This document shows positions 611 through 35,593 of a DNA stretch of 36,020 bases, piece by piece. Below the pieces are notes generated by a model. That model had not been told where the DNA came from. It did not search any database and was given only the letters and a program-made list of their open reading frames with translations. Source of the stretch: Chiloscyllium plagiosum (Eukaryota); contig NW_025213801.1 in NCBI RefSeq assembly GCF_004010195.1, forward strand, positions 1 to 36,020, written 5' to 3'. Position 1 is the first letter of the stretch. The number at the start of each line of letters is the position of its first letter. The translations under genes were made by a program, and so were the position numbers.

Positions 611-613
611 CAA
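260..613 (-). pseudogene. Decayed GIY-YIG endonuclease C-terminal fragment of a Penelope ORF (no RT domain in view)
   Basis: The translation contains YVICKLPCKDYNKHYIGQT (degenerate VIYxIPCxxC...YIGQT), RIHEH, REFLEA and INKH. The first Tyr motif and one Cys are substituted, and the frame is cut off at about 610 by unrelated LTR sequence. Confidence 0.8.
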
Positions 614-624
614 TCAGGTAACAA

Positions 625-1393: not shown

Positions 1394-1455
1394 ATGTCTC
1401 TTAAAATTACCGAAGAGATTCTGGGGTTTGCAGATGATTCTCAAGTTTTCCAAGA
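1394..1455 (+). pseudogene. Probable first ~20 codons of the LTR element gag ORF, truncated by the CR1 fragment
   Basis: ATG at 1394, about 155 nt after the PBS, reading MSLKITEEILGFADDSQVFQ before the sequence switches to CR1. Positional inference; too short for domain evidence. Confidence 0.4.
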
Positions 1456-2048
1456 ATGCAGGGAGGAAAGGGTGGTGCGAGGGAGCCGTGGTTTAATAAG
1501 GAATTGGAATCCCTTGTTAAATGGAAGAGGGCGGCCTATCTCAAGATGAGACGTGAAGGTTCAATTGGGGCGACTGAGAGTTATAGGGTAGCCAGGAAGG
1601 ACCTGAAGAGAGACGTGAAGGTTCAATTGGGGCGACTGAGAGTTATAGGGTAGCCAGGAAGGACCTGAAGAGAGACGTGAAGGTTCAATTGGGGCGACTG
1701 AGAGTTATAGGGTAGCCAGGAAGGACCTGAAGAGAGACGTGAAGGTTCAATTGGGGCGACTGAGAGTTATAGGGTAGCCAGGAAGGACCTGAAGAGAGAC
1801 GTGAAGGTTCAATTGGGGCGATTGAGAGTTATAGGGTAGCCAGGAAGGACCTGAAGAGAGAGCAAAGAGCAGCAAGGAGGGGACATGAAAGGTCCTTAGT
1901 CGGTAGGATTAAGGAAAACCCTAAGGCTTTCTATAGGTATGTTAGGAATAAAAGAATGACTAGGGTAGGAATAGGTCCAGTCAAGGATAGTAGTGGGAAG
2001 TTGCGTGTGGAGGCGGAAGAGATTGGGGAGACACAGAATGAATACTTT
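1452..2048 (+). mobile_element. CR1-clade LINE, internal ORF2 fragment (linker between APE endonuclease and RT), truncated at both ends
   Basis: Removing the extra 62-bp copies gives an uninterrupted frame ...REPWFNKELESLVKWKRAAY...YRVARKDLKREQRAARRGHERSLVGRIKENPKAFYRYVRNKRMTRVGIGPVKDSSGKL...EEIGETQNEYF. PWF, KENPKAFYRY and NEYF are characteristic CR1 ORF2 motifs. No stops and retained CpGs suggest a young copy. Confidence 0.9.
1548..1861 (+). repeat. Tandem repeat, 5 x 62 bp plus 4-bp terminal microhomology (GAGA), inside CR1 ORF2
   Basis: ACGTGAAGG recurs at 1551, 1613, 1675, 1737 and 1799. Copies are identical except C>T at 1822 in the last copy. Confidence 0.97.
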
Positions 2049-2415
2049 CAGCTGTGCTAACCACTGAACCACCGTGCTACCACCATGATGCAAACGAGGA
2101 ATTGACACCTGGGGCAGAACAGCTATAATCTTGTAGACTGTCAGGGAGGCTTGAAGAGCTAAATAGCCTACTTCTGCTCCTATTTCTTATTTTCTTACAA
2201 TCTTCGTCAGTAGATATGTGAATTAAAGGATCCCAGGAGTGGGACCATTGACATTGACATGGTGGGACCATGGATTGGATTTCAGTAGATTTCCAGAGTA
2301 GAATCCCAGAGAAAATATTTGAGATGAATTGCAGAAATATAATCCCCAGGTTGATAGCAGCAATCAGGCTATCTGACTTCCTTAACCACCACCTCCTTCC
2401 ACCTTTGATAGACTG

Positions 2416-2541
2416 TTGGGGGATGTTCTTTATGTTAGGGAATTGTCAGCTATGCTGATGGAATCATAGAATTCCTACAGTATGGAAACAGGCCATTTAG
2501 CTCAACAAGTCCATACAGACTCTCCAAAGAACATCCCCCAA
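2416..2541. repeat. Perfect 16-bp inverted repeat in each unit (2416-2431 / 2526-2541, 94-nt spacer)
   Basis: TTGGGGGATGTTCTTT at 2416-2431 is the exact reverse complement of AAAGAACATCCCCCAA at 2526-2541. Confidence 0.95.
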
Positions 2542-2825
2542 AGAACATCACACTCAGACTCAGCCCCCTACCTTATAACTTTGTATTTATCATGGCTAAT
2601 CAACCTAACCTACTCATCCCTGGACACTATGGCCAATTTAGTGTGACTAATTCACCTATCCTGCACATCATTGGACTGTGGGAGGAAACCGGAGTACCCG
2701 GATGAAACTCACACAGACAGAATGTGCAAACTCCACACAGACAGTTGCCCAAGGATGGAATTGAACCCGGGTCCCTGGCACTGTGAGGCAGCTGTGCTAA
2801 CCACTGAACCACCGTGCTACCACCA
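2461..2825 (-). mobile_element. HE1-like tRNA-derived V-SINE, first of 44 full copies (repeats every +740)
   Basis: The minus strand has a tRNA-like head GGTAGCACGGTGGTTCAGTGGTTAGCACAGCTGCCTCACAGTGCCAGGGACCCGGGTTCAATTCC, a V-domain TGTGTGGAGTTTGCACATTC...TCCGGTTTCCTCCCACAGTCCAA, and a CR1/HER-derived tail AATGGCCTGTTTCCATACTGTAGGAATTCTATGATTC. TGATG on both sides (2456-2460, 2826-2830) may be a target-site duplication. Confidence 0.9.
2757..2811 (-). promoter_or_regulatory. Internal RNA polymerase III type-2 promoter of the SINE: A box (2811-2801) and B box (2767-2757), present in each unit
   Basis: A box TGGTTCAGTGG is one mismatch from TRGCNNARYGG. B box GGTTCAATTCC matches GGTTCRANNCC. 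The 33-nt spacing is tRNA-like. Confidence 0.75.
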
Positions 2826-2937
2826 TGATGCAAACGAGGAATTGACACCTGGGGCAGAACAGCTATAATCTTGTAGACTGTCAGGGAGGCTTGAAGAGCT
2901 AAATAGCCTACTTCTGCTCCTATTTCTTATTTTCTTA
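2826..2937 (+). mobile_element. Old CR1-type LINE 3' UTR/tail within each unit (first occurrence 2086-2197)
   Basis: GGGGCAGAACAGCTATAATCTT...GGCTTGAAGAGCTAAATAGCCTACTTCTGCTCCTATTTCTTATTTTCTTA resembles a decayed CR1 3' end (GATCAGCCATGATCTT...GAATGGCCTACTCCTGCTCCTA plus a TTCTTA-type tail repeat). Confidence 0.75.
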
Positions 2938-5900
2938 CAATCTTCGTCAGTAGATATGTGAATTAAAGGATCCCAGGAGTGGGACCATTGACATTGACAT
3001 GGTGGGACCATGGATTGGATTTCAGTAGATTTCCAGAGTAGAATCCCAGAGAAAATATTTGAGATGAATTGCAGAAATATAATCCCCAGGTTGATAGCAG
3101 CAATCAGGCTATCTGACTTCCTTAACCACCACCTCCTTCCACCTTTGATAGACTGTTGGGGGATGTTCTTTATGTTAGGGAATTGTCAGCTATGCTGATG
3201 GAATCATAGAATTCCTACAGTATGGAAACAGGCCATTTAGCTCAACAAGTCCATACAGACTCTCCAAAGAACATCCCCCAAAGAACATCACACTCAGACT
3301 CAGCCCCCTACCTTATAACTTTGTATTTATCATGGCTAATCAACCTAACCTACTCATCCCTGGACACTATGGCCAATTTAGTGTGACTAATTCACCTATC
3401 CTGCACATCATTGGACTGTGGGAGGAAACCGGAGTACCCGGATGAAACTCACACAGACAGAATGTGCAAACTCCACACAGACAGTTGCCCAAGGATGGAA
3501 TTGAACCCGGGTCCCTGGCACTGTGAGGCAGCTGTGCTAACCACTGAACCACCGTGCTACCACCATGATGCAAACGAGGAATTGACACCTGGGGCAGAAC
3601 AGCTATAATCTTGTAGACTGTCAGGGAGGCTTGAAGAGCTAAATAGCCTACTTCTGCTCCTATTTCTTATTTTCTTACAATCTTCGTCAGTAGATATGTG
3701 AATTAAAGGATCCCAGGAGTGGGACCATTGACATTGACATGGTGGGACCATGGATTGGATTTCAGTAGATTTCCAGAGTAGAATCCCAGAGAAAATATTT
3801 GAGATGAATTGCAGAAATATAATCCCCAGGTTGATAGCAGCAATCAGGCTATCTGACTTCCTTAACCACCACCTCCTTCCACCTTTGATAGACTGTTGGG
3901 GGATGTTCTTTATGTTAGGGAATTGTCAGCTATGCTGATGGAATCATAGAATTCCTACAGTATGGAAACAGGCCATTTAGCTCAACAAGTCCATACAGAC
4001 TCTCCAAAGAACATCCCCCAAAGAACATCACACTCAGACTCAGCCCCCTACCTTATAACTTTGTATTTATCATGGCTAATCAACCTAACCTACTCATCCC
4101 TGGACACTATGGCCAATTTAGTGTGACTAATTCACCTATCCTGCACATCATTGGACTGTGGGAGGAAACCGGAGTACCCGGATGAAACTCACACAGACAG
4201 AATGTGCAAACTCCACACAGACAGTTGCCCAAGGATGGAATTGAACCCGGGTCCCTGGCACTGTGAGGCAGCTGTGCTAACCACTGAACCACCGTGCTAC
4301 CACCATGATGCAAACGAGGAATTGACACCTGGGGCAGAACAGCTATAATCTTGTAGACTGTCAGGGAGGCTTGAAGAGCTAAATAGCCTACTTCTGCTCC
4401 TATTTCTTATTTTCTTACAATCTTCGTCAGTAGATATGTGAATTAAAGGATCCCAGGAGTGGGACCATTGACATTGACATGGTGGGACCATGGATTGGAT
4501 TTCAGTAGATTTCCAGAGTAGAATCCCAGAGAAAATATTTGAGATGAATTGCAGAAATATAATCCCCAGGTTGATAGCAGCAATCAGGCTATCTGACTTC
4601 CTTAACCACCACCTCCTTCCACCTTTGATAGACTGTTGGGGGATGTTCTTTATGTTAGGGAATTGTCAGCTATGCTGATGGAATCATAGAATTCCTACAG
4701 TATGGAAACAGGCCATTTAGCTCAACAAGTCCATACAGACTCTCCAAAGAACATCCCCCAAAGAACATCACACTCAGACTCAGCCCCCTACCTTATAACT
4801 TTGTATTTATCATGGCTAATCAACCTAACCTACTCATCCCTGGACACTATGGCCAATTTAGTGTGACTAATTCACCTATCCTGCACATCATTGGACTGTG
4901 GGAGGAAACCGGAGTACCCGGATGAAACTCACACAGACAGAATGTGCAAACTCCACACAGACAGTTGCCCAAGGATGGAATTGAACCCGGGTCCCTGGCA
5001 CTGTGAGGCAGCTGTGCTAACCACTGAACCACCGTGCTACCACCATGATGCAAACGAGGAATTGACACCTGGGGCAGAACAGCTATAATCTTGTAGACTG
5101 TCAGGGAGGCTTGAAGAGCTAAATAGCCTACTTCTGCTCCTATTTCTTATTTTCTTACAATCTTCGTCAGTAGATATGTGAATTAAAGGATCCCAGGAGT
5201 GGGACCATTGACATTGACATGGTGGGACCATGGATTGGATTTCAGTAGATTTCCAGAGTAGAATCCCAGAGAAAATATTTGAGATGAATTGCAGAAATAT
5301 AATCCCCAGGTTGATAGCAGCAATCAGGCTATCTGACTTCCTTAACCACCACCTCCTTCCACCTTTGATAGACTGTTGGGGGATGTTCTTTATGTTAGGG
5401 AATTGTCAGCTATGCTGATGGAATCATAGAATTCCTACAGTATGGAAACAGGCCATTTAGCTCAACAAGTCCATACAGACTCTCCAAAGAACATCCCCCA
5501 AAGAACATCACACTCAGACTCAGCCCCCTACCTTATAACTTTGTATTTATCATGGCTAATCAACCTAACCTACTCATCCCTGGACACTATGGCCAATTTA
5601 GTGTGACTAATTCACCTATCCTGCACATCATTGGACTGTGGGAGGAAACCGGAGTACCCGGATGAAACTCACACAGACAGAATGTGCAAACTCCACACAG
5701 ACAGTTGCCCAAGGATGGAATTGAACCCGGGTCCCTGGCACTGTGAGGCAGCTGTGCTAACCACTGAACCACCGTGCTACCACCATGATGCAAACGAGGA
5801 ATTGACACCTGGGGCAGAACAGCTATAATCTTGTAGACTGTCAGGGAGGCTTGAAGAGCTAAATAGCCTACTTCTGCTCCTATTTCTTATTTTCTTACAA

Positions 5901-8900
5901 TCTTCGTCAGTAGATATGTGAATTAAAGGATCCCAGGAGTGGGACCATTGACATTGACATGGTGGGACCATGGATTGGATTTCAGTAGATTTCCAGAGTA
6001 GAATCCCAGAGAAAATATTTGAGATGAATTGCAGAAATATAATCCCCAGGTTGATAGCAGCAATCAGGCTATCTGACTTCCTTAACCACCACCTCCTTCC
6101 ACCTTTGATAGACTGTTGGGGGATGTTCTTTATGTTAGGGAATTGTCAGCTATGCTGATGGAATCATAGAATTCCTACAGTATGGAAACAGGCCATTTAG
6201 CTCAACAAGTCCATACAGACTCTCCAAAGAACATCCCCCAAAGAACATCACACTCAGACTCAGCCCCCTACCTTATAACTTTGTATTTATCATGGCTAAT
6301 CAACCTAACCTACTCATCCCTGGACACTATGGCCAATTTAGTGTGACTAATTCACCTATCCTGCACATCATTGGACTGTGGGAGGAAACCGGAGTACCCG
6401 GATGAAACTCACACAGACAGAATGTGCAAACTCCACACAGACAGTTGCCCAAGGATGGAATTGAACCCGGGTCCCTGGCACTGTGAGGCAGCTGTGCTAA
6501 CCACTGAACCACCGTGCTACCACCATGATGCAAACGAGGAATTGACACCTGGGGCAGAACAGCTATAATCTTGTAGACTGTCAGGGAGGCTTGAAGAGCT
6601 AAATAGCCTACTTCTGCTCCTATTTCTTATTTTCTTACAATCTTCGTCAGTAGATATGTGAATTAAAGGATCCCAGGAGTGGGACCATTGACATTGACAT
6701 GGTGGGACCATGGATTGGATTTCAGTAGATTTCCAGAGTAGAATCCCAGAGAAAATATTTGAGATGAATTGCAGAAATATAATCCCCAGGTTGATAGCAG
6801 CAATCAGGCTATCTGACTTCCTTAACCACCACCTCCTTCCACCTTTGATAGACTGTTGGGGGATGTTCTTTATGTTAGGGAATTGTCAGCTATGCTGATG
6901 GAATCATAGAATTCCTACAGTATGGAAACAGGCCATTTAGCTCAACAAGTCCATACAGACTCTCCAAAGAACATCCCCCAAAGAACATCACACTCAGACT
7001 CAGCCCCCTACCTTATAACTTTGTATTTATCATGGCTAATCAACCTAACCTACTCATCCCTGGACACTATGGCCAATTTAGTGTGACTAATTCACCTATC
7101 CTGCACATCATTGGACTGTGGGAGGAAACCGGAGTACCCGGATGAAACTCACACAGACAGAATGTGCAAACTCCACACAGACAGTTGCCCAAGGATGGAA
7201 TTGAACCCGGGTCCCTGGCACTGTGAGGCAGCTGTGCTAACCACTGAACCACCGTGCTACCACCATGATGCAAACGAGGAATTGACACCTGGGGCAGAAC
7301 AGCTATAATCTTGTAGACTGTCAGGGAGGCTTGAAGAGCTAAATAGCCTACTTCTGCTCCTATTTCTTATTTTCTTACAATCTTCGTCAGTAGATATGTG
7401 AATTAAAGGATCCCAGGAGTGGGACCATTGACATTGACATGGTGGGACCATGGATTGGATTTCAGTAGATTTCCAGAGTAGAATCCCAGAGAAAATATTT
7501 GAGATGAATTGCAGAAATATAATCCCCAGGTTGATAGCAGCAATCAGGCTATCTGACTTCCTTAACCACCACCTCCTTCCACCTTTGATAGACTGTTGGG
7601 GGATGTTCTTTATGTTAGGGAATTGTCAGCTATGCTGATGGAATCATAGAATTCCTACAGTATGGAAACAGGCCATTTAGCTCAACAAGTCCATACAGAC
7701 TCTCCAAAGAACATCCCCCAAAGAACATCACACTCAGACTCAGCCCCCTACCTTATAACTTTGTATTTATCATGGCTAATCAACCTAACCTACTCATCCC
7801 TGGACACTATGGCCAATTTAGTGTGACTAATTCACCTATCCTGCACATCATTGGACTGTGGGAGGAAACCGGAGTACCCGGATGAAACTCACACAGACAG
7901 AATGTGCAAACTCCACACAGACAGTTGCCCAAGGATGGAATTGAACCCGGGTCCCTGGCACTGTGAGGCAGCTGTGCTAACCACTGAACCACCGTGCTAC
8001 CACCATGATGCAAACGAGGAATTGACACCTGGGGCAGAACAGCTATAATCTTGTAGACTGTCAGGGAGGCTTGAAGAGCTAAATAGCCTACTTCTGCTCC
8101 TATTTCTTATTTTCTTACAATCTTCGTCAGTAGATATGTGAATTAAAGGATCCCAGGAGTGGGACCATTGACATTGACATGGTGGGACCATGGATTGGAT
8201 TTCAGTAGATTTCCAGAGTAGAATCCCAGAGAAAATATTTGAGATGAATTGCAGAAATATAATCCCCAGGTTGATAGCAGCAATCAGGCTATCTGACTTC
8301 CTTAACCACCACCTCCTTCCACCTTTGATAGACTGTTGGGGGATGTTCTTTATGTTAGGGAATTGTCAGCTATGCTGATGGAATCATAGAATTCCTACAG
8401 TATGGAAACAGGCCATTTAGCTCAACAAGTCCATACAGACTCTCCAAAGAACATCCCCCAAAGAACATCACACTCAGACTCAGCCCCCTACCTTATAACT
8501 TTGTATTTATCATGGCTAATCAACCTAACCTACTCATCCCTGGACACTATGGCCAATTTAGTGTGACTAATTCACCTATCCTGCACATCATTGGACTGTG
8601 GGAGGAAACCGGAGTACCCGGATGAAACTCACACAGACAGAATGTGCAAACTCCACACAGACAGTTGCCCAAGGATGGAATTGAACCCGGGTCCCTGGCA
8701 CTGTGAGGCAGCTGTGCTAACCACTGAACCACCGTGCTACCACCATGATGCAAACGAGGAATTGACACCTGGGGCAGAACAGCTATAATCTTGTAGACTG
8801 TCAGGGAGGCTTGAAGAGCTAAATAGCCTACTTCTGCTCCTATTTCTTATTTTCTTACAATCTTCGTCAGTAGATATGTGAATTAAAGGATCCCAGGAGT

Positions 8901-11900
8901 GGGACCATTGACATTGACATGGTGGGACCATGGATTGGATTTCAGTAGATTTCCAGAGTAGAATCCCAGAGAAAATATTTGAGATGAATTGCAGAAATAT
9001 AATCCCCAGGTTGATAGCAGCAATCAGGCTATCTGACTTCCTTAACCACCACCTCCTTCCACCTTTGATAGACTGTTGGGGGATGTTCTTTATGTTAGGG
9101 AATTGTCAGCTATGCTGATGGAATCATAGAATTCCTACAGTATGGAAACAGGCCATTTAGCTCAACAAGTCCATACAGACTCTCCAAAGAACATCCCCCA
9201 AAGAACATCACACTCAGACTCAGCCCCCTACCTTATAACTTTGTATTTATCATGGCTAATCAACCTAACCTACTCATCCCTGGACACTATGGCCAATTTA
9301 GTGTGACTAATTCACCTATCCTGCACATCATTGGACTGTGGGAGGAAACCGGAGTACCCGGATGAAACTCACACAGACAGAATGTGCAAACTCCACACAG
9401 ACAGTTGCCCAAGGATGGAATTGAACCCGGGTCCCTGGCACTGTGAGGCAGCTGTGCTAACCACTGAACCACCGTGCTACCACCATGATGCAAACGAGGA
9501 ATTGACACCTGGGGCAGAACAGCTATAATCTTGTAGACTGTCAGGGAGGCTTGAAGAGCTAAATAGCCTACTTCTGCTCCTATTTCTTATTTTCTTACAA
9601 TCTTCGTCAGTAGATATGTGAATTAAAGGATCCCAGGAGTGGGACCATTGACATTGACATGGTGGGACCATGGATTGGATTTCAGTAGATTTCCAGAGTA
9701 GAATCCCAGAGAAAATATTTGAGATGAATTGCAGAAATATAATCCCCAGGTTGATAGCAGCAATCAGGCTATCTGACTTCCTTAACCACCACCTCCTTCC
9801 ACCTTTGATAGACTGTTGGGGGATGTTCTTTATGTTAGGGAATTGTCAGCTATGCTGATGGAATCATAGAATTCCTACAGTATGGAAACAGGCCATTTAG
9901 CTCAACAAGTCCATACAGACTCTCCAAAGAACATCCCCCAAAGAACATCACACTCAGACTCAGCCCCCTACCTTATAACTTTGTATTTATCATGGCTAAT
10001 CAACCTAACCTACTCATCCCTGGACACTATGGCCAATTTAGTGTGACTAATTCACCTATCCTGCACATCATTGGACTGTGGGAGGAAACCGGAGTACCCG
10101 GATGAAACTCACACAGACAGAATGTGCAAACTCCACACAGACAGTTGCCCAAGGATGGAATTGAACCCGGGTCCCTGGCACTGTGAGGCAGCTGTGCTAA
10201 CCACTGAACCACCGTGCTACCACCATGATGCAAACGAGGAATTGACACCTGGGGCAGAACAGCTATAATCTTGTAGACTGTCAGGGAGGCTTGAAGAGCT
10301 AAATAGCCTACTTCTGCTCCTATTTCTTATTTTCTTACAATCTTCGTCAGTAGATATGTGAATTAAAGGATCCCAGGAGTGGGACCATTGACATTGACAT
10401 GGTGGGACCATGGATTGGATTTCAGTAGATTTCCAGAGTAGAATCCCAGAGAAAATATTTGAGATGAATTGCAGAAATATAATCCCCAGGTTGATAGCAG
10501 CAATCAGGCTATCTGACTTCCTTAACCACCACCTCCTTCCACCTTTGATAGACTGTTGGGGGATGTTCTTTATGTTAGGGAATTGTCAGCTATGCTGATG
10601 GAATCATAGAATTCCTACAGTATGGAAACAGGCCATTTAGCTCAACAAGTCCATACAGACTCTCCAAAGAACATCCCCCAAAGAACATCACACTCAGACT
10701 CAGCCCCCTACCTTATAACTTTGTATTTATCATGGCTAATCAACCTAACCTACTCATCCCTGGACACTATGGCCAATTTAGTGTGACTAATTCACCTATC
10801 CTGCACATCATTGGACTGTGGGAGGAAACCGGAGTACCCGGATGAAACTCACACAGACAGAATGTGCAAACTCCACACAGACAGTTGCCCAAGGATGGAA
10901 TTGAACCCGGGTCCCTGGCACTGTGAGGCAGCTGTGCTAACCACTGAACCACCGTGCTACCACCATGATGCAAACGAGGAATTGACACCTGGGGCAGAAC
11001 AGCTATAATCTTGTAGACTGTCAGGGAGGCTTGAAGAGCTAAATAGCCTACTTCTGCTCCTATTTCTTATTTTCTTACAATCTTCGTCAGTAGATATGTG
11101 AATTAAAGGATCCCAGGAGTGGGACCATTGACATTGACATGGTGGGACCATGGATTGGATTTCAGTAGATTTCCAGAGTAGAATCCCAGAGAAAATATTT
11201 GAGATGAATTGCAGAAATATAATCCCCAGGTTGATAGCAGCAATCAGGCTATCTGACTTCCTTAACCACCACCTCCTTCCACCTTTGATAGACTGTTGGG
11301 GGATGTTCTTTATGTTAGGGAATTGTCAGCTATGCTGATGGAATCATAGAATTCCTACAGTATGGAAACAGGCCATTTAGCTCAACAAGTCCATACAGAC
11401 TCTCCAAAGAACATCCCCCAAAGAACATCACACTCAGACTCAGCCCCCTACCTTATAACTTTGTATTTATCATGGCTAATCAACCTAACCTACTCATCCC
11501 TGGACACTATGGCCAATTTAGTGTGACTAATTCACCTATCCTGCACATCATTGGACTGTGGGAGGAAACCGGAGTACCCGGATGAAACTCACACAGACAG
11601 AATGTGCAAACTCCACACAGACAGTTGCCCAAGGATGGAATTGAACCCGGGTCCCTGGCACTGTGAGGCAGCTGTGCTAACCACTGAACCACCGTGCTAC
11701 CACCATGATGCAAACGAGGAATTGACACCTGGGGCAGAACAGCTATAATCTTGTAGACTGTCAGGGAGGCTTGAAGAGCTAAATAGCCTACTTCTGCTCC
11801 TATTTCTTATTTTCTTACAATCTTCGTCAGTAGATATGTGAATTAAAGGATCCCAGGAGTGGGACCATTGACATTGACATGGTGGGACCATGGATTGGAT

Positions 11901-14900
11901 TTCAGTAGATTTCCAGAGTAGAATCCCAGAGAAAATATTTGAGATGAATTGCAGAAATATAATCCCCAGGTTGATAGCAGCAATCAGGCTATCTGACTTC
12001 CTTAACCACCACCTCCTTCCACCTTTGATAGACTGTTGGGGGATGTTCTTTATGTTAGGGAATTGTCAGCTATGCTGATGGAATCATAGAATTCCTACAG
12101 TATGGAAACAGGCCATTTAGCTCAACAAGTCCATACAGACTCTCCAAAGAACATCCCCCAAAGAACATCACACTCAGACTCAGCCCCCTACCTTATAACT
12201 TTGTATTTATCATGGCTAATCAACCTAACCTACTCATCCCTGGACACTATGGCCAATTTAGTGTGACTAATTCACCTATCCTGCACATCATTGGACTGTG
12301 GGAGGAAACCGGAGTACCCGGATGAAACTCACACAGACAGAATGTGCAAACTCCACACAGACAGTTGCCCAAGGATGGAATTGAACCCGGGTCCCTGGCA
12401 CTGTGAGGCAGCTGTGCTAACCACTGAACCACCGTGCTACCACCATGATGCAAACGAGGAATTGACACCTGGGGCAGAACAGCTATAATCTTGTAGACTG
12501 TCAGGGAGGCTTGAAGAGCTAAATAGCCTACTTCTGCTCCTATTTCTTATTTTCTTACAATCTTCGTCAGTAGATATGTGAATTAAAGGATCCCAGGAGT
12601 GGGACCATTGACATTGACATGGTGGGACCATGGATTGGATTTCAGTAGATTTCCAGAGTAGAATCCCAGAGAAAATATTTGAGATGAATTGCAGAAATAT
12701 AATCCCCAGGTTGATAGCAGCAATCAGGCTATCTGACTTCCTTAACCACCACCTCCTTCCACCTTTGATAGACTGTTGGGGGATGTTCTTTATGTTAGGG
12801 AATTGTCAGCTATGCTGATGGAATCATAGAATTCCTACAGTATGGAAACAGGCCATTTAGCTCAACAAGTCCATACAGACTCTCCAAAGAACATCCCCCA
12901 AAGAACATCACACTCAGACTCAGCCCCCTACCTTATAACTTTGTATTTATCATGGCTAATCAACCTAACCTACTCATCCCTGGACACTATGGCCAATTTA
13001 GTGTGACTAATTCACCTATCCTGCACATCATTGGACTGTGGGAGGAAACCGGAGTACCCGGATGAAACTCACACAGACAGAATGTGCAAACTCCACACAG
13101 ACAGTTGCCCAAGGATGGAATTGAACCCGGGTCCCTGGCACTGTGAGGCAGCTGTGCTAACCACTGAACCACCGTGCTACCACCATGATGCAAACGAGGA
13201 ATTGACACCTGGGGCAGAACAGCTATAATCTTGTAGACTGTCAGGGAGGCTTGAAGAGCTAAATAGCCTACTTCTGCTCCTATTTCTTATTTTCTTACAA
13301 TCTTCGTCAGTAGATATGTGAATTAAAGGATCCCAGGAGTGGGACCATTGACATTGACATGGTGGGACCATGGATTGGATTTCAGTAGATTTCCAGAGTA
13401 GAATCCCAGAGAAAATATTTGAGATGAATTGCAGAAATATAATCCCCAGGTTGATAGCAGCAATCAGGCTATCTGACTTCCTTAACCACCACCTCCTTCC
13501 ACCTTTGATAGACTGTTGGGGGATGTTCTTTATGTTAGGGAATTGTCAGCTATGCTGATGGAATCATAGAATTCCTACAGTATGGAAACAGGCCATTTAG
13601 CTCAACAAGTCCATACAGACTCTCCAAAGAACATCCCCCAAAGAACATCACACTCAGACTCAGCCCCCTACCTTATAACTTTGTATTTATCATGGCTAAT
13701 CAACCTAACCTACTCATCCCTGGACACTATGGCCAATTTAGTGTGACTAATTCACCTATCCTGCACATCATTGGACTGTGGGAGGAAACCGGAGTACCCG
13801 GATGAAACTCACACAGACAGAATGTGCAAACTCCACACAGACAGTTGCCCAAGGATGGAATTGAACCCGGGTCCCTGGCACTGTGAGGCAGCTGTGCTAA
13901 CCACTGAACCACCGTGCTACCACCATGATGCAAACGAGGAATTGACACCTGGGGCAGAACAGCTATAATCTTGTAGACTGTCAGGGAGGCTTGAAGAGCT
14001 AAATAGCCTACTTCTGCTCCTATTTCTTATTTTCTTACAATCTTCGTCAGTAGATATGTGAATTAAAGGATCCCAGGAGTGGGACCATTGACATTGACAT
14101 GGTGGGACCATGGATTGGATTTCAGTAGATTTCCAGAGTAGAATCCCAGAGAAAATATTTGAGATGAATTGCAGAAATATAATCCCCAGGTTGATAGCAG
14201 CAATCAGGCTATCTGACTTCCTTAACCACCACCTCCTTCCACCTTTGATAGACTGTTGGGGGATGTTCTTTATGTTAGGGAATTGTCAGCTATGCTGATG
14301 GAATCATAGAATTCCTACAGTATGGAAACAGGCCATTTAGCTCAACAAGTCCATACAGACTCTCCAAAGAACATCCCCCAAAGAACATCACACTCAGACT
14401 CAGCCCCCTACCTTATAACTTTGTATTTATCATGGCTAATCAACCTAACCTACTCATCCCTGGACACTATGGCCAATTTAGTGTGACTAATTCACCTATC
14501 CTGCACATCATTGGACTGTGGGAGGAAACCGGAGTACCCGGATGAAACTCACACAGACAGAATGTGCAAACTCCACACAGACAGTTGCCCAAGGATGGAA
14601 TTGAACCCGGGTCCCTGGCACTGTGAGGCAGCTGTGCTAACCACTGAACCACCGTGCTACCACCATGATGCAAACGAGGAATTGACACCTGGGGCAGAAC
14701 AGCTATAATCTTGTAGACTGTCAGGGAGGCTTGAAGAGCTAAATAGCCTACTTCTGCTCCTATTTCTTATTTTCTTACAATCTTCGTCAGTAGATATGTG
14801 AATTAAAGGATCCCAGGAGTGGGACCATTGACATTGACATGGTGGGACCATGGATTGGATTTCAGTAGATTTCCAGAGTAGAATCCCAGAGAAAATATTT

Positions 14901-17900
14901 GAGATGAATTGCAGAAATATAATCCCCAGGTTGATAGCAGCAATCAGGCTATCTGACTTCCTTAACCACCACCTCCTTCCACCTTTGATAGACTGTTGGG
15001 GGATGTTCTTTATGTTAGGGAATTGTCAGCTATGCTGATGGAATCATAGAATTCCTACAGTATGGAAACAGGCCATTTAGCTCAACAAGTCCATACAGAC
15101 TCTCCAAAGAACATCCCCCAAAGAACATCACACTCAGACTCAGCCCCCTACCTTATAACTTTGTATTTATCATGGCTAATCAACCTAACCTACTCATCCC
15201 TGGACACTATGGCCAATTTAGTGTGACTAATTCACCTATCCTGCACATCATTGGACTGTGGGAGGAAACCGGAGTACCCGGATGAAACTCACACAGACAG
15301 AATGTGCAAACTCCACACAGACAGTTGCCCAAGGATGGAATTGAACCCGGGTCCCTGGCACTGTGAGGCAGCTGTGCTAACCACTGAACCACCGTGCTAC
15401 CACCATGATGCAAACGAGGAATTGACACCTGGGGCAGAACAGCTATAATCTTGTAGACTGTCAGGGAGGCTTGAAGAGCTAAATAGCCTACTTCTGCTCC
15501 TATTTCTTATTTTCTTACAATCTTCGTCAGTAGATATGTGAATTAAAGGATCCCAGGAGTGGGACCATTGACATTGACATGGTGGGACCATGGATTGGAT
15601 TTCAGTAGATTTCCAGAGTAGAATCCCAGAGAAAATATTTGAGATGAATTGCAGAAATATAATCCCCAGGTTGATAGCAGCAATCAGGCTATCTGACTTC
15701 CTTAACCACCACCTCCTTCCACCTTTGATAGACTGTTGGGGGATGTTCTTTATGTTAGGGAATTGTCAGCTATGCTGATGGAATCATAGAATTCCTACAG
15801 TATGGAAACAGGCCATTTAGCTCAACAAGTCCATACAGACTCTCCAAAGAACATCCCCCAAAGAACATCACACTCAGACTCAGCCCCCTACCTTATAACT
15901 TTGTATTTATCATGGCTAATCAACCTAACCTACTCATCCCTGGACACTATGGCCAATTTAGTGTGACTAATTCACCTATCCTGCACATCATTGGACTGTG
16001 GGAGGAAACCGGAGTACCCGGATGAAACTCACACAGACAGAATGTGCAAACTCCACACAGACAGTTGCCCAAGGATGGAATTGAACCCGGGTCCCTGGCA
16101 CTGTGAGGCAGCTGTGCTAACCACTGAACCACCGTGCTACCACCATGATGCAAACGAGGAATTGACACCTGGGGCAGAACAGCTATAATCTTGTAGACTG
16201 TCAGGGAGGCTTGAAGAGCTAAATAGCCTACTTCTGCTCCTATTTCTTATTTTCTTACAATCTTCGTCAGTAGATATGTGAATTAAAGGATCCCAGGAGT
16301 GGGACCATTGACATTGACATGGTGGGACCATGGATTGGATTTCAGTAGATTTCCAGAGTAGAATCCCAGAGAAAATATTTGAGATGAATTGCAGAAATAT
16401 AATCCCCAGGTTGATAGCAGCAATCAGGCTATCTGACTTCCTTAACCACCACCTCCTTCCACCTTTGATAGACTGTTGGGGGATGTTCTTTATGTTAGGG
16501 AATTGTCAGCTATGCTGATGGAATCATAGAATTCCTACAGTATGGAAACAGGCCATTTAGCTCAACAAGTCCATACAGACTCTCCAAAGAACATCCCCCA
16601 AAGAACATCACACTCAGACTCAGCCCCCTACCTTATAACTTTGTATTTATCATGGCTAATCAACCTAACCTACTCATCCCTGGACACTATGGCCAATTTA
16701 GTGTGACTAATTCACCTATCCTGCACATCATTGGACTGTGGGAGGAAACCGGAGTACCCGGATGAAACTCACACAGACAGAATGTGCAAACTCCACACAG
16801 ACAGTTGCCCAAGGATGGAATTGAACCCGGGTCCCTGGCACTGTGAGGCAGCTGTGCTAACCACTGAACCACCGTGCTACCACCATGATGCAAACGAGGA
16901 ATTGACACCTGGGGCAGAACAGCTATAATCTTGTAGACTGTCAGGGAGGCTTGAAGAGCTAAATAGCCTACTTCTGCTCCTATTTCTTATTTTCTTACAA
17001 TCTTCGTCAGTAGATATGTGAATTAAAGGATCCCAGGAGTGGGACCATTGACATTGACATGGTGGGACCATGGATTGGATTTCAGTAGATTTCCAGAGTA
17101 GAATCCCAGAGAAAATATTTGAGATGAATTGCAGAAATATAATCCCCAGGTTGATAGCAGCAATCAGGCTATCTGACTTCCTTAACCACCACCTCCTTCC
17201 ACCTTTGATAGACTGTTGGGGGATGTTCTTTATGTTAGGGAATTGTCAGCTATGCTGATGGAATCATAGAATTCCTACAGTATGGAAACAGGCCATTTAG
17301 CTCAACAAGTCCATACAGACTCTCCAAAGAACATCCCCCAAAGAACATCACACTCAGACTCAGCCCCCTACCTTATAACTTTGTATTTATCATGGCTAAT
17401 CAACCTAACCTACTCATCCCTGGACACTATGGCCAATTTAGTGTGACTAATTCACCTATCCTGCACATCATTGGACTGTGGGAGGAAACCGGAGTACCCG
17501 GATGAAACTCACACAGACAGAATGTGCAAACTCCACACAGACAGTTGCCCAAGGATGGAATTGAACCCGGGTCCCTGGCACTGTGAGGCAGCTGTGCTAA
17601 CCACTGAACCACCGTGCTACCACCATGATGCAAACGAGGAATTGACACCTGGGGCAGAACAGCTATAATCTTGTAGACTGTCAGGGAGGCTTGAAGAGCT
17701 AAATAGCCTACTTCTGCTCCTATTTCTTATTTTCTTACAATCTTCGTCAGTAGATATGTGAATTAAAGGATCCCAGGAGTGGGACCATTGACATTGACAT
17801 GGTGGGACCATGGATTGGATTTCAGTAGATTTCCAGAGTAGAATCCCAGAGAAAATATTTGAGATGAATTGCAGAAATATAATCCCCAGGTTGATAGCAG

Positions 17901-20900
17901 CAATCAGGCTATCTGACTTCCTTAACCACCACCTCCTTCCACCTTTGATAGACTGTTGGGGGATGTTCTTTATGTTAGGGAATTGTCAGCTATGCTGATG
18001 GAATCATAGAATTCCTACAGTATGGAAACAGGCCATTTAGCTCAACAAGTCCATACAGACTCTCCAAAGAACATCCCCCAAAGAACATCACACTCAGACT
18101 CAGCCCCCTACCTTATAACTTTGTATTTATCATGGCTAATCAACCTAACCTACTCATCCCTGGACACTATGGCCAATTTAGTGTGACTAATTCACCTATC
18201 CTGCACATCATTGGACTGTGGGAGGAAACCGGAGTACCCGGATGAAACTCACACAGACAGAATGTGCAAACTCCACACAGACAGTTGCCCAAGGATGGAA
18301 TTGAACCCGGGTCCCTGGCACTGTGAGGCAGCTGTGCTAACCACTGAACCACCGTGCTACCACCATGATGCAAACGAGGAATTGACACCTGGGGCAGAAC
18401 AGCTATAATCTTGTAGACTGTCAGGGAGGCTTGAAGAGCTAAATAGCCTACTTCTGCTCCTATTTCTTATTTTCTTACAATCTTCGTCAGTAGATATGTG
18501 AATTAAAGGATCCCAGGAGTGGGACCATTGACATTGACATGGTGGGACCATGGATTGGATTTCAGTAGATTTCCAGAGTAGAATCCCAGAGAAAATATTT
18601 GAGATGAATTGCAGAAATATAATCCCCAGGTTGATAGCAGCAATCAGGCTATCTGACTTCCTTAACCACCACCTCCTTCCACCTTTGATAGACTGTTGGG
18701 GGATGTTCTTTATGTTAGGGAATTGTCAGCTATGCTGATGGAATCATAGAATTCCTACAGTATGGAAACAGGCCATTTAGCTCAACAAGTCCATACAGAC
18801 TCTCCAAAGAACATCCCCCAAAGAACATCACACTCAGACTCAGCCCCCTACCTTATAACTTTGTATTTATCATGGCTAATCAACCTAACCTACTCATCCC
18901 TGGACACTATGGCCAATTTAGTGTGACTAATTCACCTATCCTGCACATCATTGGACTGTGGGAGGAAACCGGAGTACCCGGATGAAACTCACACAGACAG
19001 AATGTGCAAACTCCACACAGACAGTTGCCCAAGGATGGAATTGAACCCGGGTCCCTGGCACTGTGAGGCAGCTGTGCTAACCACTGAACCACCGTGCTAC
19101 CACCATGATGCAAACGAGGAATTGACACCTGGGGCAGAACAGCTATAATCTTGTAGACTGTCAGGGAGGCTTGAAGAGCTAAATAGCCTACTTCTGCTCC
19201 TATTTCTTATTTTCTTACAATCTTCGTCAGTAGATATGTGAATTAAAGGATCCCAGGAGTGGGACCATTGACATTGACATGGTGGGACCATGGATTGGAT
19301 TTCAGTAGATTTCCAGAGTAGAATCCCAGAGAAAATATTTGAGATGAATTGCAGAAATATAATCCCCAGGTTGATAGCAGCAATCAGGCTATCTGACTTC
19401 CTTAACCACCACCTCCTTCCACCTTTGATAGACTGTTGGGGGATGTTCTTTATGTTAGGGAATTGTCAGCTATGCTGATGGAATCATAGAATTCCTACAG
19501 TATGGAAACAGGCCATTTAGCTCAACAAGTCCATACAGACTCTCCAAAGAACATCCCCCAAAGAACATCACACTCAGACTCAGCCCCCTACCTTATAACT
19601 TTGTATTTATCATGGCTAATCAACCTAACCTACTCATCCCTGGACACTATGGCCAATTTAGTGTGACTAATTCACCTATCCTGCACATCATTGGACTGTG
19701 GGAGGAAACCGGAGTACCCGGATGAAACTCACACAGACAGAATGTGCAAACTCCACACAGACAGTTGCCCAAGGATGGAATTGAACCCGGGTCCCTGGCA
19801 CTGTGAGGCAGCTGTGCTAACCACTGAACCACCGTGCTACCACCATGATGCAAACGAGGAATTGACACCTGGGGCAGAACAGCTATAATCTTGTAGACTG
19901 TCAGGGAGGCTTGAAGAGCTAAATAGCCTACTTCTGCTCCTATTTCTTATTTTCTTACAATCTTCGTCAGTAGATATGTGAATTAAAGGATCCCAGGAGT
20001 GGGACCATTGACATTGACATGGTGGGACCATGGATTGGATTTCAGTAGATTTCCAGAGTAGAATCCCAGAGAAAATATTTGAGATGAATTGCAGAAATAT
20101 AATCCCCAGGTTGATAGCAGCAATCAGGCTATCTGACTTCCTTAACCACCACCTCCTTCCACCTTTGATAGACTGTTGGGGGATGTTCTTTATGTTAGGG
20201 AATTGTCAGCTATGCTGATGGAATCATAGAATTCCTACAGTATGGAAACAGGCCATTTAGCTCAACAAGTCCATACAGACTCTCCAAAGAACATCCCCCA
20301 AAGAACATCACACTCAGACTCAGCCCCCTACCTTATAACTTTGTATTTATCATGGCTAATCAACCTAACCTACTCATCCCTGGACACTATGGCCAATTTA
20401 GTGTGACTAATTCACCTATCCTGCACATCATTGGACTGTGGGAGGAAACCGGAGTACCCGGATGAAACTCACACAGACAGAATGTGCAAACTCCACACAG
20501 ACAGTTGCCCAAGGATGGAATTGAACCCGGGTCCCTGGCACTGTGAGGCAGCTGTGCTAACCACTGAACCACCGTGCTACCACCATGATGCAAACGAGGA
20601 ATTGACACCTGGGGCAGAACAGCTATAATCTTGTAGACTGTCAGGGAGGCTTGAAGAGCTAAATAGCCTACTTCTGCTCCTATTTCTTATTTTCTTACAA
20701 TCTTCGTCAGTAGATATGTGAATTAAAGGATCCCAGGAGTGGGACCATTGACATTGACATGGTGGGACCATGGATTGGATTTCAGTAGATTTCCAGAGTA
20801 GAATCCCAGAGAAAATATTTGAGATGAATTGCAGAAATATAATCCCCAGGTTGATAGCAGCAATCAGGCTATCTGACTTCCTTAACCACCACCTCCTTCC

Positions 20901-23900
20901 ACCTTTGATAGACTGTTGGGGGATGTTCTTTATGTTAGGGAATTGTCAGCTATGCTGATGGAATCATAGAATTCCTACAGTATGGAAACAGGCCATTTAG
21001 CTCAACAAGTCCATACAGACTCTCCAAAGAACATCCCCCAAAGAACATCACACTCAGACTCAGCCCCCTACCTTATAACTTTGTATTTATCATGGCTAAT
21101 CAACCTAACCTACTCATCCCTGGACACTATGGCCAATTTAGTGTGACTAATTCACCTATCCTGCACATCATTGGACTGTGGGAGGAAACCGGAGTACCCG
21201 GATGAAACTCACACAGACAGAATGTGCAAACTCCACACAGACAGTTGCCCAAGGATGGAATTGAACCCGGGTCCCTGGCACTGTGAGGCAGCTGTGCTAA
21301 CCACTGAACCACCGTGCTACCACCATGATGCAAACGAGGAATTGACACCTGGGGCAGAACAGCTATAATCTTGTAGACTGTCAGGGAGGCTTGAAGAGCT
21401 AAATAGCCTACTTCTGCTCCTATTTCTTATTTTCTTACAATCTTCGTCAGTAGATATGTGAATTAAAGGATCCCAGGAGTGGGACCATTGACATTGACAT
21501 GGTGGGACCATGGATTGGATTTCAGTAGATTTCCAGAGTAGAATCCCAGAGAAAATATTTGAGATGAATTGCAGAAATATAATCCCCAGGTTGATAGCAG
21601 CAATCAGGCTATCTGACTTCCTTAACCACCACCTCCTTCCACCTTTGATAGACTGTTGGGGGATGTTCTTTATGTTAGGGAATTGTCAGCTATGCTGATG
21701 GAATCATAGAATTCCTACAGTATGGAAACAGGCCATTTAGCTCAACAAGTCCATACAGACTCTCCAAAGAACATCCCCCAAAGAACATCACACTCAGACT
21801 CAGCCCCCTACCTTATAACTTTGTATTTATCATGGCTAATCAACCTAACCTACTCATCCCTGGACACTATGGCCAATTTAGTGTGACTAATTCACCTATC
21901 CTGCACATCATTGGACTGTGGGAGGAAACCGGAGTACCCGGATGAAACTCACACAGACAGAATGTGCAAACTCCACACAGACAGTTGCCCAAGGATGGAA
22001 TTGAACCCGGGTCCCTGGCACTGTGAGGCAGCTGTGCTAACCACTGAACCACCGTGCTACCACCATGATGCAAACGAGGAATTGACACCTGGGGCAGAAC
22101 AGCTATAATCTTGTAGACTGTCAGGGAGGCTTGAAGAGCTAAATAGCCTACTTCTGCTCCTATTTCTTATTTTCTTACAATCTTCGTCAGTAGATATGTG
22201 AATTAAAGGATCCCAGGAGTGGGACCATTGACATTGACATGGTGGGACCATGGATTGGATTTCAGTAGATTTCCAGAGTAGAATCCCAGAGAAAATATTT
22301 GAGATGAATTGCAGAAATATAATCCCCAGGTTGATAGCAGCAATCAGGCTATCTGACTTCCTTAACCACCACCTCCTTCCACCTTTGATAGACTGTTGGG
22401 GGATGTTCTTTATGTTAGGGAATTGTCAGCTATGCTGATGGAATCATAGAATTCCTACAGTATGGAAACAGGCCATTTAGCTCAACAAGTCCATACAGAC
22501 TCTCCAAAGAACATCCCCCAAAGAACATCACACTCAGACTCAGCCCCCTACCTTATAACTTTGTATTTATCATGGCTAATCAACCTAACCTACTCATCCC
22601 TGGACACTATGGCCAATTTAGTGTGACTAATTCACCTATCCTGCACATCATTGGACTGTGGGAGGAAACCGGAGTACCCGGATGAAACTCACACAGACAG
22701 AATGTGCAAACTCCACACAGACAGTTGCCCAAGGATGGAATTGAACCCGGGTCCCTGGCACTGTGAGGCAGCTGTGCTAACCACTGAACCACCGTGCTAC
22801 CACCATGATGCAAACGAGGAATTGACACCTGGGGCAGAACAGCTATAATCTTGTAGACTGTCAGGGAGGCTTGAAGAGCTAAATAGCCTACTTCTGCTCC
22901 TATTTCTTATTTTCTTACAATCTTCGTCAGTAGATATGTGAATTAAAGGATCCCAGGAGTGGGACCATTGACATTGACATGGTGGGACCATGGATTGGAT
23001 TTCAGTAGATTTCCAGAGTAGAATCCCAGAGAAAATATTTGAGATGAATTGCAGAAATATAATCCCCAGGTTGATAGCAGCAATCAGGCTATCTGACTTC
23101 CTTAACCACCACCTCCTTCCACCTTTGATAGACTGTTGGGGGATGTTCTTTATGTTAGGGAATTGTCAGCTATGCTGATGGAATCATAGAATTCCTACAG
23201 TATGGAAACAGGCCATTTAGCTCAACAAGTCCATACAGACTCTCCAAAGAACATCCCCCAAAGAACATCACACTCAGACTCAGCCCCCTACCTTATAACT
23301 TTGTATTTATCATGGCTAATCAACCTAACCTACTCATCCCTGGACACTATGGCCAATTTAGTGTGACTAATTCACCTATCCTGCACATCATTGGACTGTG
23401 GGAGGAAACCGGAGTACCCGGATGAAACTCACACAGACAGAATGTGCAAACTCCACACAGACAGTTGCCCAAGGATGGAATTGAACCCGGGTCCCTGGCA
23501 CTGTGAGGCAGCTGTGCTAACCACTGAACCACCGTGCTACCACCATGATGCAAACGAGGAATTGACACCTGGGGCAGAACAGCTATAATCTTGTAGACTG
23601 TCAGGGAGGCTTGAAGAGCTAAATAGCCTACTTCTGCTCCTATTTCTTATTTTCTTACAATCTTCGTCAGTAGATATGTGAATTAAAGGATCCCAGGAGT
23701 GGGACCATTGACATTGACATGGTGGGACCATGGATTGGATTTCAGTAGATTTCCAGAGTAGAATCCCAGAGAAAATATTTGAGATGAATTGCAGAAATAT
23801 AATCCCCAGGTTGATAGCAGCAATCAGGCTATCTGACTTCCTTAACCACCACCTCCTTCCACCTTTGATAGACTGTTGGGGGATGTTCTTTATGTTAGGG

Positions 23901-32900: not shown

Positions 32901-34280
32901 CAGCCCCCTACCTTATAACTTTGTATTTATCATGGCTAATCAACCTAACCTACTCATCCCTGGACACTATGGCCAATTTAGTGTGACTAATTCACCTATC
33001 CTGCACATCATTGGACTGTGGGAGGAAACCGGAGTACCCGGATGAAACTCACACAGACAGAATGTGCAAACTCCACACAGACAGTTGCCCAAGGATGGAA
33101 TTGAACCCGGGTCCCTGGCACTGTGAGGCAGCTGTGCTAACCACTGAACCACCGTGCTACCACCATGATGCAAACGAGGAATTGACACCTGGGGCAGAAC
33201 AGCTATAATCTTGTAGACTGTCAGGGAGGCTTGAAGAGCTAAATAGCCTACTTCTGCTCCTATTTCTTATTTTCTTACAATCTTCGTCAGTAGATATGTG
33301 AATTAAAGGATCCCAGGAGTGGGACCATTGACATTGACATGGTGGGACCATGGATTGGATTTCAGTAGATTTCCAGAGTAGAATCCCAGAGAAAATATTT
33401 GAGATGAATTGCAGAAATATAATCCCCAGGTTGATAGCAGCAATCAGGCTATCTGACTTCCTTAACCACCACCTCCTTCCACCTTTGATAGACTGTTGGG
33501 GGATGTTCTTTATGTTAGGGAATTGTCAGCTATGCTGATGGAATCATAGAATTCCTACAGTATGGAAACAGGCCATTTAGCTCAACAAGTCCATACAGAC
33601 TCTCCAAAGAACATCCCCCAAAGAACATCACACTCAGACTCAGCCCCCTACCTTATAACTTTGTATTTATCATGGCTAATCAACCTAACCTACTCATCCC
33701 TGGACACTATGGCCAATTTAGTGTGACTAATTCACCTATCCTGCACATCATTGGACTGTGGGAGGAAACCGGAGTACCCGGATGAAACTCACACAGACAG
33801 AATGTGCAAACTCCACACAGACAGTTGCCCAAGGATGGAATTGAACCCGGGTCCCTGGCACTGTGAGGCAGCTGTGCTAACCACTGAACCACCGTGCTAC
33901 CACCATGATGCAAACGAGGAATTGACACCTGGGGCAGAACAGCTATAATCTTGTAGACTGTCAGGGAGGCTTGAAGAGCTAAATAGCCTACTTCTGCTCC
34001 TATTTCTTATTTTCTTACAATCTTCGTCAGTAGATATGTGAATTAAAGGATCCCAGGAGTGGGACCATTGACATTGACATGGTGGGACCATGGATTGGAT
34101 TTCAGTAGATTTCCAGAGTAGAATCCCAGAGAAAATATTTGAGATGAATTGCAGAAATATAATCCCCAGGTTGATAGCAGCAATCAGGCTATCTGACTTC
34201 CTTAACCACCACCTCCTTCCACCTTTGATAGACTGTTGGGGGATGTTCTTTATGTTAGGGAATTGTCAGCTATGCTGATG

Positions 34281-34645
34281 GAATCATAGAATTCCTACAG
34301 TATGGAAACAGGCCATTTAGCTCAACAAGTCCATACAGACTCTCCAAAGAACATCCCCCAAAGAACATCACACTCAGACTCAGCCCCCTACCTTATAACT
34401 TTGTATTTATCATGGCTAATCAACCTAACCTACTCATCCCTGGACACTATGGCCAATTTAGTGTGACTAATTCACCTATCCTGCACATCATTGGACTGTG
34501 GGAGGAAACCGGAGTACCCGGATGAAACTCACACAGACAGAATGTGCAAACTCCACACAGACAGTTGCCCAAGGATGGAATTGAACCCGGGTCCCTGGCA
34601 CTGTGAGGCAGCTGTGCTAACCACTGAACCACCGTGCTACCACCA
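34281..34645 (-). mobile_element. Last (44th) full HE1-like SINE copy of the array
   Basis: Same sequence as 2461-2825 offset by 43 x 740. Confidence 0.9.
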
Positions 34646-35211
34646 TGATGCAAACGAGGAATTGACACCTGGGGCAGAACAGCTATAATCTTGTAGACTG
34701 TCAGGGAGGCTTGAAGAGCTAAATAGCCTACTTCTGCTCCTATTTCTTATTTTCTTACAATCTTCGTCAGTAGATATGTGAATTAAAGGATCCCAGGAGT
34801 GGGACCATTGACATTGACATGGTGGGACCATGGATTGGATTTCAGTAGATTTCCAGAGTAGAATCCCAGAGAAAATATTTGAGATGAATTGCAGAAATAT
34901 AATCCCCAGGTTGATAGCAGCAATCAGGCTATCTGACTTCCTTAACCACCACCTCCTTCCACCTTTGATAGACTGTGGTTGCAATATAATATCTATGGAA
35001 TACACCATAGCAACTCCAAGGCTCGTTTGACATAATCTTCAGACATCCCATATCCAATATCTTGAAAGTCAAAGGCAACAGATGTATTCAGAAAACCATC
35101 TACTCCAAGTTTCTTCCAAATCATACTGCATCCTAATGACATGGACATGTATCTGTGTTCCTTCACAATGTTGAAAATAAATGTAAAAAGAACATTGGGT
35201 GCTGAATTTTC

Positions 35212-35590: not shown

Positions 35591-35593
35591 CTG

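What the first reader, a model, noticed from the sequence alone, without database searches (positions are those of the whole stretch)
2416..2541. Unit seam contains a 16-bp inverted templated insertion, a template-switch scar copied into every repeat
Seen: the point where the last unit leaves the array for the right flank (GACTGT|, phase 2416/2417) is exactly where a perfect inverted copy of 2526-2541 begins. The copied source spans a 14-bp duplication private to this SINE copy, so it most likely came from this locus. Established: short inverted locally templated inserts at junctions are hallmarks of polymerase-theta end joining and FoSTeS/MMBIR. Inference: the true unit is about 2417-3156. 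Its seam was made once by fold-back synthesis (closing a circle or a first duplication) and then amplified, and the right flank is the native continuation.
Basis: partly seen in the sequence, partly recalled or inferred. Interest (0 to 1): 0.7.

Follow-up and report, generated by a model that had tools for sequence, protein, structure and literature searches.

The report
Repair scar repeated along tandem array
A short backwards-copied patch of DNA marks the joint where a 740-base piece of shark-like DNA was first duplicated, and it recurs in every joint of a long run of identical copies; this kind of repair scar is well known, and only the size of the run is unusual.

Summary
Observation confirmed. 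The array is 44 full 740-bp units plus a 368-bp part (2049-34976), with no mismatch. It exits at phase 2416, where a 16-bp inverted copy of 2526-2541 starts; one base is shared and 15 lie past the exit. 0 of 4000 shuffles reach 15 bp.

The scar reading is partly supported. It fits published microhomology-mediated templated insertions (inverted, template 94 bp away) but fails the 30-bp rule of SD-MMEJ; polymerase theta is not shown.

New here: the array's left end cuts a LINE ORF2 (9 of 9 homologues continue), so it is a second, single-copy junction. A repeated two-switch seam plus one exit junction is the layout of the PLP1 rolling-circle case (PMC4352052). The geometry favours leftward synthesis with snap-back from the ATGTTAGGG side, which predicts that the insert's last few bases are native.

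Not shown: that the right flank is native, that the 14-bp duplication is private, the true copy number, or read support. Unequal crossing-over plus a deletion, or an assembly join, remain open. The scan noted other inverted templated inserts in this genome, none at an array seam. New member of a known kind; interest 0.3.

The parts
2049..34976 (+). Tandem array: 368-bp partial unit plus 44 full 740-bp units, no mismatch, 44 identical seams
2417..3156 (+). First full unit in the phase set by the right exit
2416..2416 (+). 1-bp microhomology (T) shared by the unit end and the inverted copy; 3 bp if one gap is allowed
2417..2431 (+). 15-nt inverted templated segment at the seam; its last few bases may be native primer (inference)
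2526..2541 (-). Template of the inverted segment, 94 nt from the ATGTTAGGG end
2524..2551 (+). Period-14 duplication inside the SINE, two copies differing at one base; privacy untested
2466..2823 (-). SINE-like element with Pol III A-box-like (2811-2801) and B-box-like (2767-2757) motifs; the ends and the family (shark HE1 / V-SINE) are recalled, not tested
   Evidence: for the boxes; Rfam gave no significant match for 2755-2850
2830..2920 (+). Probable decayed CR1-type 3' tail (recalled resemblance, approximate ends)
   Evidence: sequence only; not tested
2048..2049 (.). Left junction, single copy: LINE ORF2 cut and joined to the SINE head; 0 bp microhomology on the side that can be read
1450..2048 (+). 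LINE ORF2 fragment upstream of the reverse transcriptase domain (CR1 label recalled), cut at the array
1543..1861 (+). 62-bp x 5.1 tandem amplification inside that ORF2 fragment, 4-bp microhomology at its seam
34976..34977 (.). Right exit of the array (GACTGT|GGTTGC); probably the native continuation, not shown by any tool
   Evidence: inference

Best explanation
One replicative accident, read right to left. A fork or break-induced replication bubble copied the native locus leftwards (bottom strand) through the SINE and stalled just past ATGTTAGGG. The freed 3' end folded back on its own new strand about 95 nt behind, copied about 15 nt (the inverted segment), let go, and re-annealed one unit back at GACTGT by 1 bp (3 bp with a gap). 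That closed a 740-bp loop or circle, which was copied many times, and synthesis finally left at phase 2049 into a LINE copy further left, dropping whatever lay between. Shown: perfect array, inverted match at the seam, 1-bp microhomology, non-native left end. Inferred: direction, snap-back priming, native right flank, single event. The narrower claim, that the inverted segment was made when the seam was made and was then copied into every unit, is shared with rivals 1, 2 and 4 and stands at about 0.85-0.9. The polymerase is not identified.
For: The inverted match starts exactly at the exit point and is beyond chance. The template is 94 nt from the ATGTTAGGG end and 615 nt from the GACTGT end; templated insertions in PMC8421209 are inverted copies from within 100 bp (passages). 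The left end cuts a LINE ORF2: all 9 of 9 homologues align up to 2048 (one to 2051) and continue for 16-534 more residues. A two-switch junction repeated per turn plus one single-copy exit junction is the layout reported at PLP1 and read as MMBIR rolling circle (PMC4352052, section 13 read). Leftward synthesis explains the native entry, the near template and the foreign exit with one polarity (inference).
Against: No reads or orthologue were seen, so nativity of the right flank and the sequence upstream of ATGTTAGGG are unknown. Perfect identity does not need a single recent event: at 7e-10 per base per generation (PMC10587355, passages; an epaulette shark figure, and this species was not identified) zero differences allow up to about 130,000 generations. 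The strand before insertion has no special fold that would bring the end to the template (z -0.83). Only 1 bp of exact microhomology at the one readable switch and 0 bp at the left junction. The PLP1 precedent made under two turns of 280 kb, not 44 turns of 740 bp. The 62-bp array next door has a variant pattern that suggests more than one step. A 33-kb perfect array is longer than typical HiFi reads (recalled), so its length and the pairing of its ends may come from the assembler.
Confidence: 0.4

Rival explanations
1. Several steps: an end-joining or template-switch event made one tandem duplication with the templated seam, unequal crossing-over expanded it, and a later deletion removed the native left end and joined the LINE to the array.
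For: Needs only common processes. Perfect identity is compatible with up to about 130,000 generations. In the neighbouring 62-bp array four copies share a residue (T) seen in none of 9 homologues while the rightmost copy has I, close to the family's L/I/M, which looks stepwise. PMC4352052 itself gives a two-step recombination alternative (supplement legend seen).
Against: Needs at least three independent events at one locus, with no substitution fixed in any unit in between.
Confidence: 0.3
2. The seam is real but the assembled array is a composite: the unit is amplified at two places or to another length, and the assembler joined a foreign left end to the native right end through identical units, writing one consensus 44 times.
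For: No mismatch in 32,928 bp. The length is about two long reads (recalled read lengths). The two ends are of different kinds. The best public runs hold only 0.53-0.79 of the sampled words of 34200-35700 (8 of 23 rows); loss of the seam alone would explain about 3% (45 of 1471 31-mers, arithmetic).
Against: No N or gap in the window. Assemblers do not usually invent junctions with templated inserts (own knowledge). The assembly method is unknown.
Confidence: 0.15
3. The inverted repeat is older than the array: the native locus already had the 15-nt segment upstream of ATGTTAGGG, and the 16-bp stem guided the break that set the unit boundary.
For: The product folds into a stem of about -28 kcal/mol as single-stranded DNA. 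The native sequence upstream of 2432 is unseen.
Against: It still needs an earlier template switch, and a break that falls on the outer end of the arm to within one base.
Confidence: 0.1
4. Not germline: a small somatic DNA circle closed by end joining was amplified by rolling-circle copying in the cell or during library preparation and entered the assembly as a chimera.
For: A perfect concatemer with one blunt foreign end is what such a product would look like (own knowledge).
Against: It would need support from several reads to enter an assembly; nothing here points to an amplified library.
Confidence: 0.05

Closest known systems
MMBIR templated insertions (MMB-TI; Osia et al. 2021, PMC8421209, passages seen)
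   Same: Inverted copy of 10 bp or more from a template within about 100 bp, with short microhomology that grows when one gap is allowed. About 100 such germline events were found in each of two people in that paper.
   Different: Here the insertion sits at a duplication seam and is repeated 44 times; the second switch cannot be read because the native upstream sequence is missing.
PLP1 quadruplication by rolling-circle MMBIR (Beck et al. 2015, PMC4352052; passages and section 13 read; supplements not seen)
   Same: A junction made of two template switches is repeated once per turn, and a separate single-copy junction ends the amplification.
   Different: 280 kb and under two turns there, 740 bp and 44.5 turns here. 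There copy number and family transmission were measured; here neither. Their junction sequences are in a supplement I did not see, so I cannot say whether their insert is a local inverted copy.
Snap-back SD-MMEJ / polymerase-theta end joining (Khodaverdian et al. 2017, PMC5728401, passages seen)
   Same: Fold-back synthesis turns the insert into one arm of a new inverted repeat made of primer, insert and microhomology; 1-bp microhomologies are accepted.
   Different: Their rule needs the repeat's far end within 30 bp of the joint; here it is 110 bp.
Satellites born from local or element-derived sequence, and circle-mediated spread (Sproul et al., 10.1101/846238, passages seen; PMC5932611, search listing only)
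   Same: A head-to-tail array of a unit built from retroelement pieces, with microhomology-type junctions.
   Different: One locus seen, no divergence between units, and the founding junction still readable.

Membership tests
MMB-TI (PMC8421209) | Insertion of at least 10 bp | tested here: met
   15 nt beyond the exit point; still 10 or more if up to 5 bases prove to be native primer
MMB-TI (PMC8421209) | Inverted copy of a template within 100 bp | tested here: met
   Exact reverse complement; near edge 94 nt away, far edge 110 nt
MMB-TI (PMC8421209) | Microhomology at both switches | tested here: inconclusive
   1 bp exact, 3 bp with one gap at the GACTGT switch; the other switch needs the unamplified allele
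MMB-TI (PMC8421209) | Insertion absent from the ancestral allele | not tested
   No genome held, no reads laid, no orthologous DNA found
SD-MMEJ-consistent junction (PMC5728401) | Repeat motif of at least 4 bp | tested here: met
   16 bp
SD-MMEJ-consistent junction (PMC5728401) | Far end of the repeat within 30 bp of the joint | tested here: not met
   110 bp (rule read)
SD-MMEJ-consistent junction (PMC5728401) | Primer repeat and microhomology repeat of at least 1 bp each | tested here: inconclusive
   Microhomology 1 bp; primer not readable without the native upstream sequence
Polymerase-theta end joining | Dependence on POLQ | not testable with these tools
   Needs genetics; the scar is shared with MMBIR
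MMBIR rolling-circle amplification (PMC4352052) | The same multi-switch junction at every turn | tested here: met
   44 identical seams in the assembly
MMBIR rolling-circle amplification (PMC4352052) | A separate single-copy non-homologous junction ending the amplification | tested here: met
   2048/2049 cuts a LINE ORF2; 9 of 9 homologues continue. Assembly sequence only
MMBIR rolling-circle amplification (PMC4352052) | Native sequence at the entry end | tested here: inconclusive
   Searches for an element or protein spanning 34976/34977 found nothing usable; a LINE resemblance across it is recalled only
MMBIR rolling-circle amplification (PMC4352052) | Measured junction copy numbers | not tested
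   No read depth obtained
MMBIR rolling-circle amplification (PMC4352052) | Origin in one step, without low-copy intermediates | not testable with these tools
   Needs pedigree or population alleles
HE1 / V-SINE | tRNA-derived head with A and B boxes | tested here: met
   Box-like motifs at 2811-2801 and 2767-2757 on the minus strand (motif patterns recalled); no significant Rfam match
HE1 / V-SINE | 80-bp V domain (PMC4824008, passages seen) | not tested

The most novel reading that the evidence does not exclude
A satellite-sized array was born in one germline event: a leftward-moving polymerase snapped back, closed a 740-bp loop, rolled 40 or more turns and exited into an upstream LINE, possibly stuttering again 190 bp later to make the 62-bp array. 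The locus would record entry, loop closure and exit of a vertebrate germline rolling circle at base resolution, at far more turns than the PLP1 case.
Probability: 0.25. Interest if true: 0.6.

Novelty: new member of a known kind. Interest (0 to 1): 0.3.

Why it matters
The scar itself is ordinary: about 100 per person in one human study, and earlier notes report others in this genome. The open question it touches is how new tandem arrays start, by gradual unequal exchange or by a one-step rolling circle. Here the founding seam and both ends are readable, so three junction-spanning read counts in a few individuals would separate the two models. That makes it a clean test case if the array is real as assembled.

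Tried and rejected
No whole genome is held, so other perfect arrays could not be surveyed. No reads or contigs were laid (one search returned no data), which leaves seam support, depth and the ancestral allele open. One search listed 23 runs: 8 of organism A hold 0.53-0.79 of 160 words, 3 of organism B 0.24-0.25; shares are not resolved by position and were not used as support.

Looking for shark DNA in the collections: the ORF2 piece found no relative in viral or genome contigs and 33 distant loci at 32-51% identity in metagenome contigs; a 23-nt SINE stretch had 0 matches in viral and genome contigs.

Testing whether an old LINE spans the right exit: 0 of 6 ORFs at or near the exit or seam are in the protein collection. 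A full phmmer search, which I sent on the minus strand although the suspected element is on the plus strand, gave 1 hit, a repetitive microbial-type protein that proved spurious on realignment (best E 0.05). blastn and tblastn against the 33 loci gave nothing significant. A profile of 14 ORF2 tails scored the exit region below shuffled controls while finding the control fragment at about 35265-35450 at 20.9 bits.

The first shuffle null was discarded because it counted palindromes. A pre-formed hairpin guiding the snap-back was not supported. No 9-bp or longer local template was found for the left junction. Top-strand fold-back from GACTGT was considered and ranked lower (615-nt loop, 1-bp primer); the product sequence cannot exclude it. 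Earlier-finding look-ups near this place, by seam sequence and by words found nothing on this array. Paper searches for a shark or other animal germline case of this layout found none; the library lacks most subscription papers.

Full report
Setting. The window looks like shark DNA: the LINE fragment at 1800-2048 matches proteins of Heterodontus francisci and Stegostoma tigrinum at 66-67% and unnamed proteins at up to 78%, and earlier notes on this genome call it a shark (unchecked). I did not identify the species. No whole genome is held.

The array. Period-740 identity is unbroken from 2049 to 34976: a 368-bp part and 44 full units, with no mismatch and no N. The last unit leaves at phase 2416, reading GACTGT then GGTTGC, where every other unit reads GACTGT then TGGGGG. 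The unit holds a minus-strand SINE-like element with A- and B-box-like motifs; its family name and the CR1-type tail after it are recalled, not tested.

The inverted match. 2416-2431 is the exact reverse complement of 2526-2541. The first base is shared with the exit, so 15 nt lie past it. The source crosses the junction of a 14-bp duplication. With palindromes excluded, 0 of 4000 shuffles give a 15-bp inverted arm anywhere in the unit; my first null, which counted palindromes, gave 59 of 5000. A 16-mer is expected once or twice by chance somewhere in a genome of 3.6 Gb (size from note e1-8025441, unchecked), but a match within the unit has a probability near 1e-6, so a local source is much likelier.

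Which end primed. The template starts 94 nt from ATGTTAGGG and 615 nt from the GACTGT end of a single-copy locus. On the bottom strand the insert continues the ATGTTAGGG end and is copied from that same strand, which is snap-back geometry. In the SD-MMEJ model the new repeat consists of primer, insert and microhomology (PMC5728401, passages). So some bases at the right end of the apparent insert should be native primer, and the T at 2416 is the closing microhomology: 1 bp exact, 3 bp with one gap. No special fold of the strand before insertion supports the long loop (z -0.83). The product sequence alone cannot exclude fold-back from the other end.

The left end. The open frame at 1800-2048 is a LINE ORF2 piece; all 9 of 9 homologues align to 2048 (one to 2051) and continue, two of them through a reverse transcriptase domain. 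The window instead switches to the SINE head with 0 bp microhomology on the readable side. So the array has a repeated two-switch seam and a single foreign junction, and the native sequence upstream of ATGTTAGGG is not in the window.

The right end. It is probably native. The seam version carries the templated segment and the exit version does not, and from memory 34930-35170 resembles the coding end of an abundant shark LINE running across the exit. That resemblance is a lead only: four attempts to confirm it failed (32, 37, 41; 55; 57), although the profile did find a different old fragment nearby.

Mechanism. One polarity accounts for all three junctions: enter from the right flank, stall past ATGTTAGGG, snap back, re-anneal one unit behind, go round many times, exit into the LINE. 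This is the layout of the PLP1 quadruplication, where a junction of two template switches occurs twice and one of a single switch occurs once, read as MMBIR rolling circle (PMC4352052, section 13; its junction sequences are in a supplement I did not see). Mitotic MM-BIR with fold-back synthesis and single-event amplification is also reported in human cells (PMC13065848, passages). I put this one-step reading at 0.4. Duplication, unequal crossing-over and a later deletion (0.3) fits equally well at sequence level. Perfect identity does not decide it: at 7e-10 per base per generation (PMC10587355, passages) zero differences allow about 130,000 generations, or about 18,000 at 5e-9. An assembly join or arbitrary length (0.15), an older inverted repeat (0.1) and a non-germline circle (0.05) remain.

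Evidence missing. No reads were laid, so the seam, both ends and the copy number rest on the assembly. One search shows that related DNA is public: 8 of 23 listed runs, all organism A, hold 0.53-0.79 of the sampled words and 3 runs of organism B hold about 0.25. These shares do not say which part is held.

Comparison and novelty. It works like an MMB-TI and meets the size, orientation and distance features tested; it fails the 30-bp SD-MMEJ rule, so I do not file it under SD-MMEJ, and POLQ dependence is untestable here. Earlier notes on this genome report other inverted templated copies (e1-7858567, e1-7858040, unchecked), which suggests that such scars are not rare in it. Five paper searches found no shark or other animal germline array with this full layout, within a library that lacks most subscription papers. 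Verdict: real, a new member of a known kind, interest 0.3; 0.6 if reads show a one-step origin.

Noticed in passing
window 1543-1861: 62-bp x 5.1 tandem amplification inside the LINE ORF2 fragment, 4-bp microhomology at its seam, ending about 190 bp from the big array. The four left copies share a base giving T where 9 homologues have L (7), I (1) or M (1); the rightmost copy gives I.
   Followed up: partly
window 2048-2049: The array's left end cuts the LINE ORF2 before its reverse transcriptase domain; the native sequence upstream of the unit is absent from the window.
   Followed up: yes
window 1-620, minus strand: Frame with a GIY-YIG-like end of a Penelope-type element (label recalled).
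   Followed up: no
window 35238-35450: Old, broken 3' end of a CR1-type ORF2 on the plus strand: weak tblastn hits to P0003 and P0004 and 20.9 bits with a local profile.
   Followed up: partly
window 34930-35170: Decayed sequence that from memory resembles the C-terminal coding end of another shark LINE and seems to run across the right exit; not confirmed by any search.
   Followed up: partly
window 2423-2436: The end of the inverted segment and the following bases read like the short repeats of CR1-type tails (recalled), so up to 8-10 bases of the apparent insert could be native.
   Followed up: no
window 34200-35700: No public run listed holds more than 0.79 of the sampled words, and two runs of one sample agree with each other (0.79/0.79, 0.75/0.75), which hints at haplotype differences from the assembly.
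   Followed up: no
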